64,000 bases of DNA from Eledone cirrhosa (lineage: Eukaryota), in assembly GCA_964016885.1 (NCBI GenBank), contig OZ024743.1, forward strand, positions 89,962,001 through 90,026,000, given 5' to 3'. A program made the translations under genes and the position numbers. The notes beneath the pieces were generated by a model. That model made no database searches and was not told the DNA's origin. It worked only from the letters and a program-made list of their open reading frames with translations. Shown in pieces: positions 1 to 63,850 of this stretch. Numbering within the stretch: position 1 is the stretch's first letter; every line of letters starts with the position of its first letter.

Positions 1-500
1 TCGCTTCGCTACGCATTTCCAATATTTTTAATGCTTACACTATTTTTAATACTTATATTATTTCTCCACGCACAGACTATAACAATCATATAAAGAATTC
101 ATCACCAGATCAACCACCTTAACACTCTCGATTACCTGCTTAAGTGCTTCTATTACACGCAACTCTCTGCCACACTATATAGACAAGACGCACGTGCTTG
201 CCACACATATAACCTTTGCACTATATAACCGCTTAATTTCATGTTGTATTTTAACCTGTATTTTTGATTGTATCTTTTAATATGAATGTAATTTCTAAGT
301 GTGTACTGCCACACTAAATGCTATAATGAATGTTGACCCACAATATTTGCATATGTATCTGTATGTCTCTTGGGTGATAAGGAGGTCATATAAGTGTTCA
401 TTCAATAATAAATTGCTCCGAAGAATCCAAACCTCGGTTTGGAGGAAACAGTTGTAAGCATAAAAATGTTTTGAACAGTTCTTTGATTCTTATAATTCAT
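1..500 (+). mobile_element. 3' UTR/pLTR of a Penelope-like element (family B), ending in a TA tract
   Basis: Homologous to the reverse complement of 7210-7910, which flanks the PLE ORF at 7920-8795. It carries an HHR-like motif about 40 nt before the TA tract. Confidence 0.7.
414..460 (+). ncRNA. Minimal type I hammerhead-like motif (core variant CCGAAGA)
   Basis: tgct-CCGAAGA-a-tccaaacc(tc)ggtttgga-g-GAAAC-agtt-GUA-agca. Stem I tgct/agca, 8-bp stem II, minimal stem III. Confidence 0.6.
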
Positions 501-519
501 ATATATACATATACATATT

Positions 520-590
520 ATTAGTAAAAATTAAAGTTTAAGCAAAGATTCGCTGCTTTCACCCTATTACGGGATCTTCTGAAACTTGCA
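520..590 (-). mobile_element. PLE 3' terminus (family C) with degenerate HHR-like motif
   Basis: Same sequence as 11865-11935 (3' end of the PLE whose ORF is 12864-13860) and 26755-26830. Flanked by TA repeats. Confidence 0.65.
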
Positions 591-988
591 TATATATATA
601 TATATATATATATATATATATATATATATATATATATATATTAAATATATACAAGCGCGTAGGACTACCAAACACGTCAATCTGAACACAAGCACGCCTA
701 GAACAAACACAAAGTAATCATCGAATGCCTTATACATAAATAATACACACAGAAGACAAAGCCAACAATAAACAAAACATCTAGTGGACAAGACCATCGG
801 ATTCCAAACTTGTAAAAATTACATTCGTTAAAACAAAGCCAATCATGAACTAAATGTCTATATTAGAACTAAGACAACCCGTATAATCCCTACCTCAGAC
901 ATCCTCCGTATATCCTAACCCCTAACCCGCTCTAAGTATTAGTATGGGGGGACAGTCTTTTTCAAGCAGCACCTGTCAAATTACGCAG

Positions 989-1081
989 TTTAACCCCGAC
1001 GGCAGAGCTCAAGCCGTTTCGACGGCTATTTCTGGGCAGAAATAGCCGTCGAAACGGCTTGTGCTCTGCCTCGGGGTTAAA
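989..1081. repeat. Near-perfect palindrome made of two inverted 3' halves of the family A hammerhead
   Basis: tttaaccccgacggcagagctcaagccgtttcgacggctatttctg / cagaaatagccgtcgaaacggcttgtgctctgcctcggggttaaa, followed by (TA)n. Confidence 0.85.
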
Positions 1082-1380
1082 CAACATTTTCCTATATATA
1101 TATATATATATATATATATATATATATATATATATATATATATATATATATATATATATATATATATATATATATATATATATATATATATATATAGGAA
1201 AGTAAAAAACAACAACACAGGAGTAAAAGTTACGAAAGGTATTATCTCTCTATATATATATATATATATATATATATATATATATATAACGAAGGAAATG
1301 TGATAAGGAACCAGATGGACCATAACGCACCAAAGTACTCAATACTTAGGGTAGTAGAGTGGGTAATAGGAACAAGTATG

Positions 1381-1476
1381 ACCCCGACGGCAGAGCTCAA
1401 GCCGTTTCGACGGCTAATTCTGGACTAAATAAGAATTTTTAGCCTGGTAAATAAATAGCCGAACTTCTCAGGGGGT
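1381..1476 (-). ncRNA. Type I hammerhead motif, family A (core reads CUGAGAA)
   Basis: acccc-CUGAGAA-gttcggcta...tagccgtc-GAAA-cggc(ttgagctct)gcc-GUC-ggggt on the minus strand. Confidence 0.6.
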
Positions 1477-59984: not shown

Positions 59985-62260
59985 ATTAAAATAACAGATT
60001 AAAGTTTAAGCAAAGAATCGCTCTTTGCATTTTAGTCTTCAAATTTATTATTATTATTATTATTATTTATTATTATTACTATATATATATATAATAATGC
60101 ACATAATAGAATGGTTTACGATATTACCTGAGAAAAGTAGGACCAGCTTTATCCAACTGGATATTGCTGGCTACTACTCCTCAATCTCGCCCATAGTGCT
60201 TAATAAGGCTCTTATTTTAGCGATGTCCAATACGGACCTAACCCGCGAGGAGGTGGGCATCATCCACGCCGCCCGAAAGACCTTGATCCGTTTCGTTGGG
60301 TACCTTTGGACCAGGAGTGATTGGCCAAATAACTTTGACATCACGGTGGGCTCCAGCGACTCCGCACAGGTAACGGACCTGGTTAGGCTCTTCCTGCTGA
60401 AGCAAATAAAAGAAGAAATCACCTGCCTGGGCGGCGGATTGTATCGTGACGATGCTCTCTTCACAGTCTATGACCACAGCACCACTATGGTGGGGAGAAT
60501 GAAGAGGCGAATTAGGCATTTCTTTAAGAACCATGGGCTCAGTATCAAACTAGACCCAAGTAGAAAGGTAGTCAACTTCCTAGACACCACCCTAAACCTG
60601 AGCACTGAGCAATAATACTCCTATCACAAGCCCAACGAGAAACTGGTATATGTTAACGCCAATACAAACCACCCTAGATCCATAATTAAGGCCGTAGTCA
60701 AGAATGTCTTAGACAGGATCTCCAACCTGTCCGCCAATAAGGAGATCTCCGATAGCAACGCAGAGTATTACAACGCAGCTCTAAATAAGGCGGCGCATGG
60801 CCAAAATATATCTTACAATCCGAAGCGCCATGATAGGGATAGCCCATCAGACCCCCCGAACCACGGTATCCGGGAGGAGGGGACCCTAACAGTACAGGCA
60901 GAGTGGAAACCACTAAACACTGTGAAACCGACGCCAGCACATTAGCGAAAAGGACGTGTACGTCTAGCCATGGGAGGAAACCCAGTACGAGTAGCGGTCT
61001 CACGGGGTTTACTAACCACCCCGGGACCGACGCCCCCATCCACAAGACACGAAGCGGGACGGATGGAGGATCATCCCATTGTAGAACTCCCAGCGTGGCC
61101 AACAACCACTCCACGGGTCGGGAAGCTAGCAAAACACATAGCGCCCAAAGGGTGATCAATAATGCGGGAACCACTAGCAACCCAACAACTCCCCAACAGC
61201 CCACAGCACGCTCAACCCACCCACATAGGAATAGACGTAGAAAAATCACGTGGTACAACCCACCCTACTCAGCGGGCCTAAAGAACAGCCTGGCCCGGTC
61301 ATTCTTTAGAGCACTAGATAAATGCTTCCCGAGGGACCATAAATACCACAAGATCTTCAACAGACACACTGTGAAGCTCTCGTATTCTACCACGTGCAAT
61401 GTAGCCCAGCACATAGCTAGCATCAATAGGGGTAGACTTAGAAGCTACACACAACCAGAAGCTGGCAATATAAGCACCCAGCAGAGCCATGTGGAGGGAA
61501 GGAAGGGTGGACCCAGTACCCACCTTGGGAACCCAAACAGACCCAGCCCCCCCCCCCCCCCCACCGGGCCCAGCAGAAGACCACCCTATAATACGCAACA
61601 GGAACCCCACATTAGGCACTCGGGGGTCGACCACCTCCTGCAACTGCAGAATCCCCACATTATGCCCTCTTAGTAATGAATGCCTAAGGAAGAACTTAAT
61701 ATACGGATGTAGAGTAAAAAAAACCCAACTCTGAGCACCTTTACATAAGAGCCACATCAACCAGCTTCAAAGACCGATGGTATAACCATCGCCATTCCTT
61801 TAATAGGGAGGACAAAGGAAAAGTACGGCTCTTTCCGAACTGATCTGGAAGTTCAAGCTGGACAGGACCCCGTACTTTCTGGCCTGGTCCAAAATCAGGA
61901 AAGTACCACCTGATAGAGGGGGATCTGGCATCTGCAAACTATATCTGATCGAGACTCTCGAGATACTCAGCGGTGGAAGCAGCCTAATAAACCTCATGAC
62001 TGACTTCTTCGGTACATGTAGACACCTCAGGGCCGGGACCTTCCTCAAACTATATGGACAATAACAACACATTGGGATGGGAACTTCCCTCAAGCTATAG
62101 GGATAGTAGCCCCGCCACACCGAGCGCAAAGTAAACCACCCCTACATACTCACCACCCCTACTCCTGCCTCGATCGACTCCTATAGCAACACATACGTAT
62201 ACATATGTCCATACATAGATACTGTTGTTTAAAATTATACATACATAGATACTTGCATGT
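59985..62260 (+). mobile_element. Decayed 5'-truncated PLE, preceded by an inverted family C terminus (59985-60060)
   Basis: FIQLDIAGYYSSI, ITVGSSDSAQVTDLV, GGGLYRDD, VNFLDTTL, RKITWYNPPYS, CNCRIPTLCPL, NLIY. Several stops and frameshifts. Confidence 0.9.
60100..62065 (+). pseudogene. PLE RT-GIY-YIG pseudogene
   Basis: The ORF pieces 60025-60615, 60903-61673 and 61489-61734 are colinear with the ORF at 4818-6192. Confidence 0.88.
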
Positions 62261-62300
62261 GTGTGTGTGTATATATATATATATATATATATATATATAT

Positions 62301-62436
62301 AATTAGCCTTCGAAACACGGCTTGAGCTCTGCCGTCGGGGTCATACTTGTTCCTATTACCCACTCTACTACCCTAAGTATTGAGTACTTTGGTGCGTTAT
62401 GGTCCATCTGGTTTTCCTTACCACATTTCCTTCGTT
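62301..62436 (+). mobile_element. Family A PLE end truncated in HHR stem II, between (TA)n tracts
   Basis: Matches 2987-3118. Confidence 0.8.
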
Positions 62437-63321
62437 ATATATATATATATATATATATATATGTGTGTGTGTGTGTGTGTGTGTGTGTGTGTGTGTGTGT
62501 GTGTGTGTGTGTGTGTGTGTGTGTGTGTGTGTGTGTATGTATGTGTATGTGTGTATATAATGTGTGTGTGTGTGTGTATATATATATATATACATATGGA
62601 ATGCACTTGAGCCTGTGTTTGTGCGTGTGTGCTTGCAACGATGTGCGTTGACATACACTCATATGTACTTTATGCCGAAATAGGAACTGTAGTCCTTTGC
62701 ATTTCCGGATTTTGACACTCAGGTTCTGGTGTTTTACACTCCACTTTTATCTCATTTGCTCTTAAAACACATCACTCGATGATAAAATAAGAATTGTAAT
62801 TCTTTACACTTCTCGATTCTGACACAGGTTTTCTACTTCAGTTAATATTTTTCAAATCTTTCAAATTTTGATATTGTTTGTAACACACGCATTTTTTTAT
62901 TTTTTTATTTGTTTGGCACCCCCCACCACGTGAAATGGTGGCAGGATAGATGCCAACTTACACACACAAATCCTTCTGAACATAGCAGCAGCACACTAAA
63001 GCTGAACTGCCAGCTGACCCCTTAACACCACTACCACTACCAACACAGTGGACGAGGTCAGCTGTACTTAAACAAAAAAAACTACAACAGATTGTCTTGC
63101 CTCAGAAAAATTTCTATAGACTTTTGACTGATGAATGTTCTCACAACTGACCAATGGGATGTGAGAGTGTCCTATGACGCCGAAATTCGTTTGTTCTAAC
63201 CCATATGATTCCAGTTCCTCAGAGAAATAACAACACAACCAGGAGCTGGACATATCGATCTACTGACAGAGTAAAACACACTTCAACAACATGTGTACCT
63301 GTCTTTCCCACACCAATTCGG

Positions 63322-63376
63322 ACCGCCTGAAGAGGTCACAGCCAATGATAGCTGTCACCGAAATATATATAGCAGT
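63322..63376 (+). ncRNA. Minimal type I hammerhead motif
   Basis: accgc-CUGAAGA-ggtcacagc(caatgata)gctgtcacc-GAAA-tatata-UA-gcagt. Confidence 0.7.
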
Positions 63377-63795
63377 ATATCTATAATTTATAATAAACGA
63401 AGCCAAATTTTACATATTTGACTTAATTATTTTACATTACTCCGGAGTAAACAAACCAACCTGTGTACTTCGTCGAGTACTCCAATCTGCATACTGAGGT
63501 GTCGGTAAACAACCAACCATACACTAAAAATATATATATATATATATATATATGGCGTTGTCATTTGACGTCTTTGAAGAGAGCAGTGGCCTTTGACACA
63601 CACACACACACAAGTTTGTTTGTGTGCGTGTGTATCTATCTATGTATATATATATATATATATATATATATATATATATATATATATATATATATATATA
63701 TATATATATATATATATATATATATATATAATATATATATAAAATAAAATAAAGTTAAATAAAAGTCAAATGATTAAAATTTACCTTCGTTTATT

Positions 63796-63850
63796 ACTGC
63801 TATATATATTTCAGTGACAGCCATCTTTGGCTGTGACCTCTTCAGGCAGT
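63796..63850 (-). ncRNA. Minimal type I hammerhead motif (same family, opposite strand)
   Basis: actgc-CUGAAGA-ggtcacagcc(aaagat)ggctgtcact-GAAA-tatata-UA-gcagt, with perfect stem I. Confidence 0.72.

What the first reader, a model, noticed from the sequence alone, without database searches (positions are those of the whole stretch)
414..63850. Dense (TA)n-nested set of Penelope-like elements and hammerhead-bearing non-coding derivatives
Seen: about 20 full, partial or degenerate type I hammerhead motifs from roughly nine sequence families, starting at 414, 549, 1381, 2928, 3216, 6810, 7260, 11897, 26755, 27076, 28183, 28395, 37207, 37297, 44600, 48199, 50426, 58511, 59145, 63322 and 63796. 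Most lie ~40-280 nt upstream of a (TA)n or TA-rich tract, and four families are physically linked to PLE RT/GIY-YIG ORFs. Known: PLE pseudo-LTRs carry minimal HHRs and some PLEs prefer microsatellites. Inference: (TA)n tracts here act as reusable landing pads for several PLE lineages and for ORF-less ribozyme RNAs that borrow their enzymes. If so, much apparent microsatellite DNA in this genome is a ribozyme-retroelement mosaic.
Basis: partly seen in the sequence, partly recalled or inferred. Interest (0 to 1): 0.85.

Follow-up and report, generated by a model that had tools for sequence, protein, structure and literature searches.

The report
Hammerhead Penelope elements and their retrozymes
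This stretch is packed with fragments of Penelope-like retrotransposons that carry hammerhead-ribozyme motifs and end at TA microsatellites, plus two short protein-free hammerhead repeats with the same insertion footprint, which suggests that these 'retrozymes' likely spread by borrowing the Penelope enzyme in a genome estimated to hold about 230,000 intact hammerhead motifs.

Summary
The window has 7 complete type I hammerheads with a perfect core, against 0 in 25 shuffles. Nineteen of the 21 listed sites have both core halves; two more sites were missed. Most belong to (TA)n-ending Hydra-clade Penelope-like elements (PLEs), a described kind already known from octopus (PMC8557442).

The interpretation needs correcting. 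Eleven of 14 window families are tied to a PLE ORF in other copies, so most 'ORF-less' pieces are 5'-truncated stubs. They carry the PLE footprint: two fixed 3' ends, (TA)n flanks and head-to-head arms. This is direct genomic support for the published but unproven idea that PLEs move animal retrozymes.

A 1.11-Mb sample gives 77 intact motifs per Mb, about 230,000 genome-wide, so the window is typical of its genome. 5' ends avoid the cleavage site (4 of 165) and cluster inside the ribozyme. Cleavage and expression are untested. An unchecked scan note (e1-7810660) reports a similar footprint for a tRNA-bearing repeat in another genome.

The parts
1..505 (+). 3' UTR and pLTR arm of Hydra family F418; hammerhead 414-460 with U4C core at 418; its inverted partner lies just upstream of the window
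   Evidence: ORF upstream in other copies L225, L228, L230, L231, L245, L246; core CCGAAGA in 22 of 24 copies
530..589 (-). stub of Hydra family F581; hammerhead with U4A core at 581
   Evidence: CAGAAGA in 19 of 22 copies
987..1077 (.). head-to-head pair of half-hammerhead stubs, family F1451
1289..1675 (-). 3' arm of Hydra family F1451; core at 1471 mutated from the family's U3-A8 form; ends at (TA)n 1251-1288
   Evidence: ORF link in L045 and L112
2734..3117 (+). 3' arm of F1451, U3-A8 core at 2934; ends at (TA)n 3118-3173
3174..6194 (-). long arm of the young Hydra family F6818: 5'-truncated ORF, 3' UTR, hammerhead core at 3273, short (proximal) end at (TA)n
4818..6194 (-). Hydra-type RT/GIY-YIG ORF fragment, 458 aa; an intact 740-aa copy lies in L023
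6193..7009 (+). inverted 5'-truncated arm of F6818 with hammerhead core at 6818 and the ~90-nt tail; ends at (TA)n 7010-7061
7062..7360 (-). F418-related arm, U4C core at 7302, stem I damaged
7854..8847 (+). broken Hydra ORF fragments of the F418 group (about 80% nt identity to L245/L249), followed by a post-hammerhead stub at 8797-8847
11867..13865 (-). 5'-truncated Hydra element F581: ORF 12864-13865, U4A core at 11928, ends at (TA)n 11825-11866; inverted partner at about 13940-14520 (+)
21233..21427 (.). F1451 half-hammerhead stubs between TA tracts
26288..26504 (-).
26709..26822 (+). F581 stub, U4A core at 26761, ends at (TA)n
27034..28271 (.). head-to-head pair of Hydra family F27118 (cores 27118- and 28187+, each with one private mutation)
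   Evidence: full ORF upstream in L233-L235
28290..28485 (-). stub of family F28433, minimal-type hammerhead with U4C core at 28432
   Evidence: ORF link in one locus, L244
37090..37281 (.). ~200-nt head-to-head mini-pair of Hydra family F37213; core at 37213+; junction in the 5' arm of stem I
   Evidence: hammerhead + tail + ORF start in L270-L272, L280, L281
37294..37399 (+). half hammerhead (5' core cut off), F63327-like
44535..44705 (+). stub of F44608 (F6818 superfamily); core at 44608; 3' end overwritten by a SINE
   Evidence: ORF link in one locus, L106
47980..48677 (-). 3' UTR stub of Hydra family F48246, U3-A8 core at 48233; ends at (TA)n
49479..50618 (+). non-Hydra PLE: ORF end 49479-50180 with CX4CXXC linker and CCHH (Nematis-like spacing), perfect hammerhead 50426-50469, ends at (TA)n
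58490..58721 (+). half hammerhead and 3' flank resembling the 529-nt family (by eye; no BLAST hit)
58790..59490 (.). ORF-less retrozyme family (529-nt unit): 1.06-unit + arm 58938-59490 with perfect hammerhead (core 59152), 3' end at +281 at (TA)n, and a short inverted arm on its left
59987..60026 (-). F581 stub holding little more than the post-cleavage part
60085..63530 (+). 5'-truncated, frameshifted Hydra element F63327 (ORF pieces about 60100-62060, core at 63327); an internal (TA)n tract in its 3' UTR holds an F1451 stub at 62302-62435
63750..64000 (-). arm of an F63327 subfamily, perfect hammerhead, core at 63845; continues into the next stretch (L021)

Best explanation
The window is a pile-up of mostly 5'-truncated Penelope-like retrotransposon copies (mainly Hydra clade) whose 3' ends carry hammerhead motifs and abut (TA)n, plus two ORF-less hammerhead repeat families with the same insertion footprint, which are therefore likely moved in trans by a Penelope-like enzyme. 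Shown: ORF anatomy, motifs, TA adjacency, two fixed 3' ends per family, head-to-head arms with one short and one tailed end, more-than-unit retrozyme copies, and 5' ends inside the ribozyme rather than at its cut site. Inferred: the GIY-YIG domain nicks both strands of a (TA)n tract; reverse transcription starts at two fixed internal RNA sites, one per target strand; the template is uncleaved or circular RNA; the ribozyme stems stall the RT or let the two cDNAs anneal, giving the many 100-300-nt stubs; elements that carry internal (TA)n tracts supply new targets, so copies nest. Self-cleavage, circular RNA and the identity of the partner family are not shown.
For: Intact 740-aa ORF with the Hydra motifs in L023 (definition). 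F6818: the 40 scored top hits are 100% identical; all 22 distinct arms in the 20 loci end at TA (one tract imperfect), and 8 of 8 pairs have one short and one tailed arm. Sample chosen without regard to these elements: 31 of 33 adjacent head-to-head pairs are short + long; 79 of 165 5' ends fall 15-55 nt upstream of the cut site and 4 of 165 within 5 nt of it. 529-nt family: 58 of 69 arms end at one of two sites, 53 of 69 at TA, 31 of 69 exceed one unit (maximum 2.43); 20 of 30 pairs are proximal + distal and none uses the same site twice. 477-nt family: 17 of 19 arms at two sites, 16 of 19 at TA. No PLE protein hit in either unit; longest stop-free frames 79 and 73 aa. Two more ORF-less tandem families (592 and 311 nt) show TA ends and inverted arms. 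In vitro, a Poseidon PLE nicks and extends both strands, starts at two internal sites that define the tail, and does not need hammerhead cleavage (PMC11167929).
Against: Retrozyme loci were mostly top BLAST hits, so long copies are over-represented. No large array or master locus was found, and an ORF-bearing master with a tandemly repeated 3' UTR is not excluded beyond 2.43 units. 10 of 30 pairs of the 529-nt family have an end outside the two sites. BLAST ends can reflect divergence in loop II rather than truncation. The number of covarying pairs did not exceed shuffles. For the AU-rich and variant-core motifs the predicted minimum-energy fold is often not the hammerhead (z about 0 for 6810, 11897 and 28183; some fold windows cut off stem I). 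PMC11167929 saw no difference in start site between strands in vitro. At least three PLE types target (TA)n in octopods (Hydra, Naiad, and the Nematis-like family here), so the partner cannot be named.
Confidence: 0.78

Rival explanations
1. The ORF-less units are not independent retrozymes but tandemly duplicated 3' UTR segments of an autonomous PLE not yet seen, so every copy is just a truncated PLE.
For: Eleven other families that looked ORF-less, or nearly so, in the window proved to be truncated PLEs; some have 3' UTRs over 2 kb (F27118). Only the 40 best candidates are scored per search.
Against: Arms run up to 2.43 units and 11 of 69 cross two or more cut sites without leaving the unit; no same-strand ORF directly upstream in 13 + 23 + 11 loci; near-identical 3- to 4-unit arrays exist for the 311- and 592-nt families.
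Confidence: 0.1
2. The retrozymes are moved by a LINE or another enzyme and only share the TA target.
For: PMC7229834 leaves LINEs or PLEs open; octopus has active LINE families (PMC13282606, passages).
Against: The optional tail and the inverted 5'-truncated partner are described as PLE features, the tail as not seen in LINE target-primed insertion (PMC8557442; PMC11167929); the retrozymes show both. In one locus (L304) a retrozyme arm runs straight into a Hydra RT fragment (a single case).
Confidence: 0.05
3. The (TA)n tracts are made or greatly lengthened by the elements (RT slippage or untemplated addition) rather than being pre-existing targets.
For: TA lies at almost every 3' end and often at truncated 5' ends; PLE RTs are related to telomerase (PMC8557442).
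Against: Copies land in TA tracts that are internal, inherited parts of other elements (F63327 UTR in the window, L238, L239). Only 13-14% of tracts could be tied to an element end. This rival can hold together with the best explanation.
Confidence: 0.15
4. Hammerhead cleavage defines the template end, so the short stubs are reverse-transcribed cleavage products.
For: Some stubs hold little more than the post-cleavage part (59987-60026, 8797-8847).
Against: 4 of 165 5' ends lie within 5 nt of the cut site; 0 of 69 and 0 of 19 among retrozyme arms over 80 nt.
Confidence: 0.04
5. Chance motifs in AT-rich repeats, or assembly artefacts.
For: Rfam finds no hammerhead at gathering score; TA tracts are frequent (1.36 per kb).
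Against: 85 perfect-core motifs in 1.11 Mb against 0-1 in five shuffles; families recur across contigs; junctions differ between copies.
Confidence: 0.01

Closest known systems
Hydra clade of Penelope-like elements, including Hydra-1_Obim of Octopus bimaculoides (Craig et al. 2021, PMC8557442)
   Same: C-terminal GIY-YIG, RW[RK] and DKT motifs, CxCX5C linker, CxxC and CxH around the conserved E and N, no CCHH, hammerhead near the 3' end, (TA)n preference, inverted 5'-truncated partner, tail at one end.
   Different: About ten deeply diverged families in one genome instead of one listed for O. bimaculoides; long 3' UTRs (F6818 about 4 kb against generally under 3 kb); tails of about 70-170 nt against 30-40; family-fixed U4A, U4C and U3-A8 cores, whereas all Hydra cores in File S2 are CUGANGA.
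Non-LTR retrozymes of animals (Cervera and de la Pena 2020, PMC7229834; Li, Clavereau and Pollet 2026, 10.64898/2026.07.22.740005)
   Same: ORF-less units with one type I hammerhead each, head-to-tail copies, co-occurring with PLEs.
   Different: Mostly dispersed 0.3- to 1.7-unit copies; units of 477-592 nt (above 170-400 nt, within Li's 51-972 nt); ends at (TA)n with two fixed 3' ends and inverted partners. In the parts I read, those papers argue the PLE link from shared motif, co-distribution and pLTR similarity, not from insertion footprints.
PLE hammerheads, minimal and variant (Cervera and de la Pena 2014, PMC4209133; Perreault et al. 2011, PMC3088659)
   Same: Type I fold, extra base at the foot of stem II, palindromic helix III, U3-A8 covariant, U4C variant, most motifs dispersed as truncated PLEs.
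   Different: U4A fixed in a prolific family (19 of 22 copies) was not found in the passages read; the estimated count (about 230,000) exceeds the 126,247 reported for the roughly tenfold larger axolotl genome, though the descriptors differ.
Putative non-autonomous Chlamys PLEs such as MRC1 (PMC8557442)
   Same: ORF-less elements that form pLTRs and head-to-tail insertions.
   Different: Green algae; Chlamys mostly lack hammerheads. They resemble their autonomous partner at the 3' end, while the two units here matched none of the window's ORF-linked 3' modules.

Membership tests
Hydra-clade PLE | Single ORF with RT and C-terminal GIY-YIG endonuclease | tested here: met
   740-aa intact ORF in L023, 737 aa in L024; Pfam scan gave no hit, so the assignment rests on motifs and by-eye comparison with Hydra-1_Obim
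Hydra-clade PLE | RWK-type N-terminal motif and DKG changed to DKT | tested here: met
   RWR and DKT in L023; RWR and DKT in L281
Hydra-clade PLE | CxCX5C linker; CxxC and CxH beside the conserved E and N; no CCHH | tested here: met
   window ORFs 6194-4818 and 13865-12864 and L023, read against section 11
Hydra-clade PLE | Hammerhead in the pLTR and (TA)n insertion | tested here: met
Hydra-clade PLE | Generally under 3 kb (descriptive, not diagnostic) | tested here: not met
   F6818 runs about 4 kb from ORF start to hammerhead in L023
Hydra-clade PLE | Groups with reference Hydra sequences in an RT tree; no insertion-in-fingers domain | not tested
   the tree holds only genome copies and database homologs, no named clade references
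Type I hammerhead ribozyme | Conserved core with three helices, helix I open | tested here: met
Type I hammerhead ribozyme | Compensatory changes in the stems | tested here: met
   one superfamily only; three of five measures beat all shuffles, two did not
Type I hammerhead ribozyme | Self-cleavage | not testable with these tools
   needs in vitro assay; the U4A core in particular is unproven
Non-LTR retrozyme (529- and 477-nt units) | No protein-coding capacity | tested here: met
Non-LTR retrozyme (529- and 477-nt units) | Head-to-tail repeats with a type I hammerhead per unit | tested here: met
   more-than-unit copies crossing two or three cut sites; arrays with two or more intact motifs were seen only for the 311- and 592-nt families
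Non-LTR retrozyme (529- and 477-nt units) | Expressed as linear and circular RNA | not testable with these tools
   no RNA holder listed
Non-LTR retrozyme (529- and 477-nt units) | No LTR, primer-binding site or polypurine tract; target-site duplications when present | not tested
   duplications cannot be read inside (TA)n
Nematis or Neptune PLE (49479-50618) | CX2-5CxxC linker and CCHH in a C-terminal endonuclease | tested here: met
   short spacer matches the Nematis rows of Fig. S2 by eye
Nematis or Neptune PLE (49479-50618) | RT phylogeny that separates the two clades | tested here: inconclusive
   only 6 unnamed longer homologs; no reference tree

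The most novel reading that the evidence does not exclude
This genome holds the largest hammerhead population in the papers checked (over 200,000 intact motifs, perhaps about 300,000 with variant cores) and records in its DNA that circular retrozyme RNAs are copied rolling-circle fashion into (TA)n by a Penelope-like enzyme that starts at two fixed RNA sites, one on each target strand, while a prolific family thrives with a U4A core that is either a new active hammerhead variant or proof that cleavage is dispensable.
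Probability: 0.45. Interest if true: 0.7.

Novelty: new member of a known kind. Interest (0 to 1): 0.5.

Why it matters
Which enzyme moves animal retrozymes is stated as open (PMC7229834; 10.64898/2026.07.22.740005). Here ORF-less units carry the PLE-specific footprint, with mapped start sites, beside a young family with an intact ORF, so a trans-mobilisation assay can be designed directly. The near-strict 'one short, one tailed arm' rule and the 5'-end cluster inside the ribozyme constrain PLE integration models. About 77 intact hammerheads per Mb that Rfam misses at gathering score also matter for octopod repeat annotation and for microsatellite markers.

Tried and rejected
Rfam: 0 hits at gathering score; the E-value list was swamped by microsatellite hairpins. 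Pfam: no meaningful hit on 8 + 8 proteins. Cleavage-site truncation idea: rejected. The F37213 mini-palindrome as a unit that moves by itself: rejected, because junction sequences differ among the 16 loci and an ORF-bearing parent exists. A fixed 5' end for F28433 and for F63327: rejected; the first is a junction hot spot, the second an internal TA tract. In one search the F37213 query contained a TA run, so its 858 hits were discarded and the test was redone; the F581 module stops at +54, inside the tail. The arm-identity figure was off register and is not used. Seven of the 30 U3-A8 hits come from one satellite (L109) and were dropped from the estimate. Sequencing runs: no RNA holder listed; laying run X1 (contigs, kind not on record) gave nothing on expression. 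The tree is the quick tree, not the finished one. Lunse et al. 2017 (PMC5785218) is not held and was not read, so U4A may be described there. No earlier scan notes exist for this genome.

Full report
Setting. The window lies at G000:C4:89962001-90026000 in a 3.0-Gb assembly. The best named homolog of its main ORF is from Argonauta hians, and the ORF matches Hydra-1_Obim of Octopus bimaculoides by eye. The host is therefore inferred to be an octopod; the species was not sought.

Observation. A type I hammerhead descriptor found 7 complete motifs with a perfect core in the window and none in 25 shuffles; with one mismatch allowed, 10 against a mean of 0.56. Several apparent degenerations are family traits: U4A in 19 of 22 copies of F581, U4C in 22 of 24 copies of F418 and in at least 11 of 16 of F28433, and U3-A8 in 13 of 15 of F48246 (counts over all fetched loci, which include top hits). 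U3-A8 and U4C are published natural variants (PMC4209133, parts 1-2 of 4 read; PMC3088659, passages and section 8). Rfam finds none at gathering score. In 32 sequences of the F6818/F44608 superfamily, collected by BLAST rather than by the descriptor, 95.3% of stem cells pair and 30 cells change on both sides against 10.9 in shuffles. The number of covarying pairs (4) and of pair types did not beat shuffles, and kinship can inflate such scores. Energy folding supports the GC-richer motifs (z -2.3 to -2.9 for 26442, 59152, 63845) but not the AU-rich or variant ones.

Genome scale. They hold 85 perfect-core motifs, against 0-1 in five shuffles: 77 per Mb (bootstrap 55-102), about 230,000 genome-wide (165,000-305,000). 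U3-A8 motifs add about 23 after dropping 7 from one satellite (shuffles 1-6), and U4A motifs about 9. The window (7 in 64 kb) is thus near the genome norm. For comparison, 126,247 motifs are reported for axolotl (PMC7229834, passages and Discussion), whose genome is given as 28 Gb (10.64898/2026.07.22.740005, parts 1-3 of 5), and 235 Rfam hits for giant squid (PMC6962438, passages); the descriptors differ. 74 of 81 scorable motifs have (TA)6 within 300 nt downstream, against 39 of 81 upstream and 20% of random positions. Seen from the tracts, 117 of 824 have an intact motif pointing at them and 107 of 824 abut the 3' end of a window family.

What the elements are. Four ORF regions in the window are Hydra-type, and family F6818 has an intact 740-aa copy with RWR, DKT, CxCX5C, CxxC and CxH motifs and no CCHH. 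These are the features that define Hydra, a clade described as carrying canonical hammerheads and inserting into (TA)n (PMC8557442: passages, section 11, supplement part 2 and searches in it). A fifth ORF (49479-50180) has CX4CXXC and CCHH with Nematis-like spacing. F6818 is very young: the 40 scored top hits are 100% identical. A quick tree shows about ten deeply diverged Hydra lineages in this genome, with the Argonauta protein among them and 24 of the 27 database homologs in a separate clade (no named references, midpoint root).

Are the ORF-less families really ORF-less? Mostly not. In other genomic copies a same-strand ORF lies upstream of F418 (4 of 11 loci within 1.5 kb), F48246, F27118, F581, F1451 and F63327, and hammerhead, tail and ORF start are contiguous for F37213 (5 of 13 loci). 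F28433 and F44608 are tied on one locus each. With F6818 and F50430 that makes 11 of 14 families; F45507 was not tested. F63327 carries an internal (TA)n tract in its 3' UTR that holds a different insertion in the window, in L238 and in L239, which shows tract reuse directly.

Two families are ORF-less. F59152 has a 529-nt unit and F26442 a 477-nt unit from cut site to cut site, with no PLE protein hit and stop-free frames of at most 79 aa. Upstream of a unit lies its own 3' part, so long copies are terminally redundant. For the 529-nt unit, 58 of 69 distinct arms end at about +196 or +281, 53 abut TA, 31 exceed one unit and 11 cross two or more cut sites (maximum 2.43 units). Of 30 head-to-head pairs, 20 combine the two sites, none repeats a site, and 10 have an end elsewhere. 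For the 477-nt unit, 17 of 19 arms end at two sites and 16 abut TA. These loci are mostly top hits, so lengths are biased upward. Two more ORF-less tandem families in the sample (311 and 592 nt) also show TA ends and inverted arms.

Mechanism. Among ORF-linked families, 8 of 8 F6818 pairs and 31 of 33 adjacent pairs in the systematic sample (seven families, one of unknown autonomy) have one short and one long arm. 79 of 165 5' ends lie 15-55 nt upstream of the cut site, inside the ribozyme, and only 4 within 5 nt of it. In vitro, a Poseidon PLE nicks and extends both target strands, starts at two internal RNA sites that bound the tail, and uses uncleaved RNA (PMC11167929, parts 1-2 of 4). I infer that one insertion event uses both sites, one per strand of the self-complementary (TA)n target, that the template is uncleaved or circular, and that the ribozyme stems act as stall or annealing points, which yields the swarm of short stubs. 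The retrozymes share each visible step, so a PLE enzyme most likely moves them. Which clade does so is open, since Naiad also prefers (TA)n in octopus. Cleavage, circles and expression are untested.

Comparison and novelty. Hydra PLEs with hammerheads at (TA)n, tails, inverted partners, dispersed truncated motifs and animal retrozymes are all described. A PLE partner for retrozymes is proposed from shared motifs, co-occurrence and pLTR similarity. Eight full-text searches (listings seen, nine papers opened in part) showed no hammerhead census in an octopod, no insertion-footprint evidence for retrozymes and no natural U4A family. A recent O. vulgaris repeat annotation does not use the word ribozyme in its main text (PMC13282606, passages). 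Subscription papers, Repbase, Lunse et al. 2017 and bioRxiv supplements were not seen and may hold part of this. One unchecked scan note (e1-7810660) reports a similar footprint for a tRNA-bearing repeat in another genome; it is not counted as evidence.

Verdict. Real, and mostly new members of known kinds. The value lies in the scale, in the footprint that ties retrozymes to PLE integration, and in the testable start sites. Interest 0.5.

Noticed in passing
L022:296-1231 (about 9 kb upstream of the window); L112:8434-10000: Classical retrozyme arrays of a 310-311-nt unit (3.0 and at least 4.3 copies, units 99.7-100% identical) ending at TA; L112 has an inverted arm.
   Followed up: partly
L072:1-2431; L052, L040, L084, L086: ORF-less 592-nt family with a U3-A8 hammerhead, up to 2.8 identical units, 3' ends at +80 and +248, all five readable loci ending at TA.
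   Followed up: partly
L304:2194-3662: A 529-nt-family arm runs directly into a Hydra RT fragment near the catalytic motif, possibly a template switch between PLE and retrozyme RNA.
   Followed up: no
window 3216-3273, 6818-6877, 44608-44667, 63327-63377, 63796-63845: In three related families helix III is an (AU)4 palindrome, the same sequence as the DNA target; other families use other palindromes, so it may be only base composition.
   Followed up: partly
window 1977-2205, 10565-10762, 19461-19788, 30011-30241, 31363-31465, 38338-38560, 44703-44776, 49145-49314, 53693-53863, 54029-54209: Many copies of abundant short interspersed repeats, several inserted into the PLE pieces; they resemble octopus SINEs (recalled, not checked).
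   Followed up: no
window 14524-14976 and 22625-23075 (inverted, 91% identical); ORF 23069-22701 (-): 3' end of another retroelement with a 122-aa frame that looks like a restriction-like endonuclease tail of a LINE (recalled motif); one copy ends at an (ACAT)n tract.
   Followed up: no
window 15282-16787, 31510-34201, 38863-41708, 42694-43695, 57407-58129: Large minisatellite and microsatellite arrays (9/24-, 29-, 37-, 3- and 4-nt periods).
   Followed up: no
window 8790-8847: A Hydra ORF fragment is joined, with a short shared stretch, to pLTR sequence close to the hammerhead cut site; a single case.
   Followed up: no
L055, L032, L057, L082, L102: A frequent family with a small hammerhead and 3' ends at +125 and +180, absent from the window; ORF link unknown.
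   Followed up: partly
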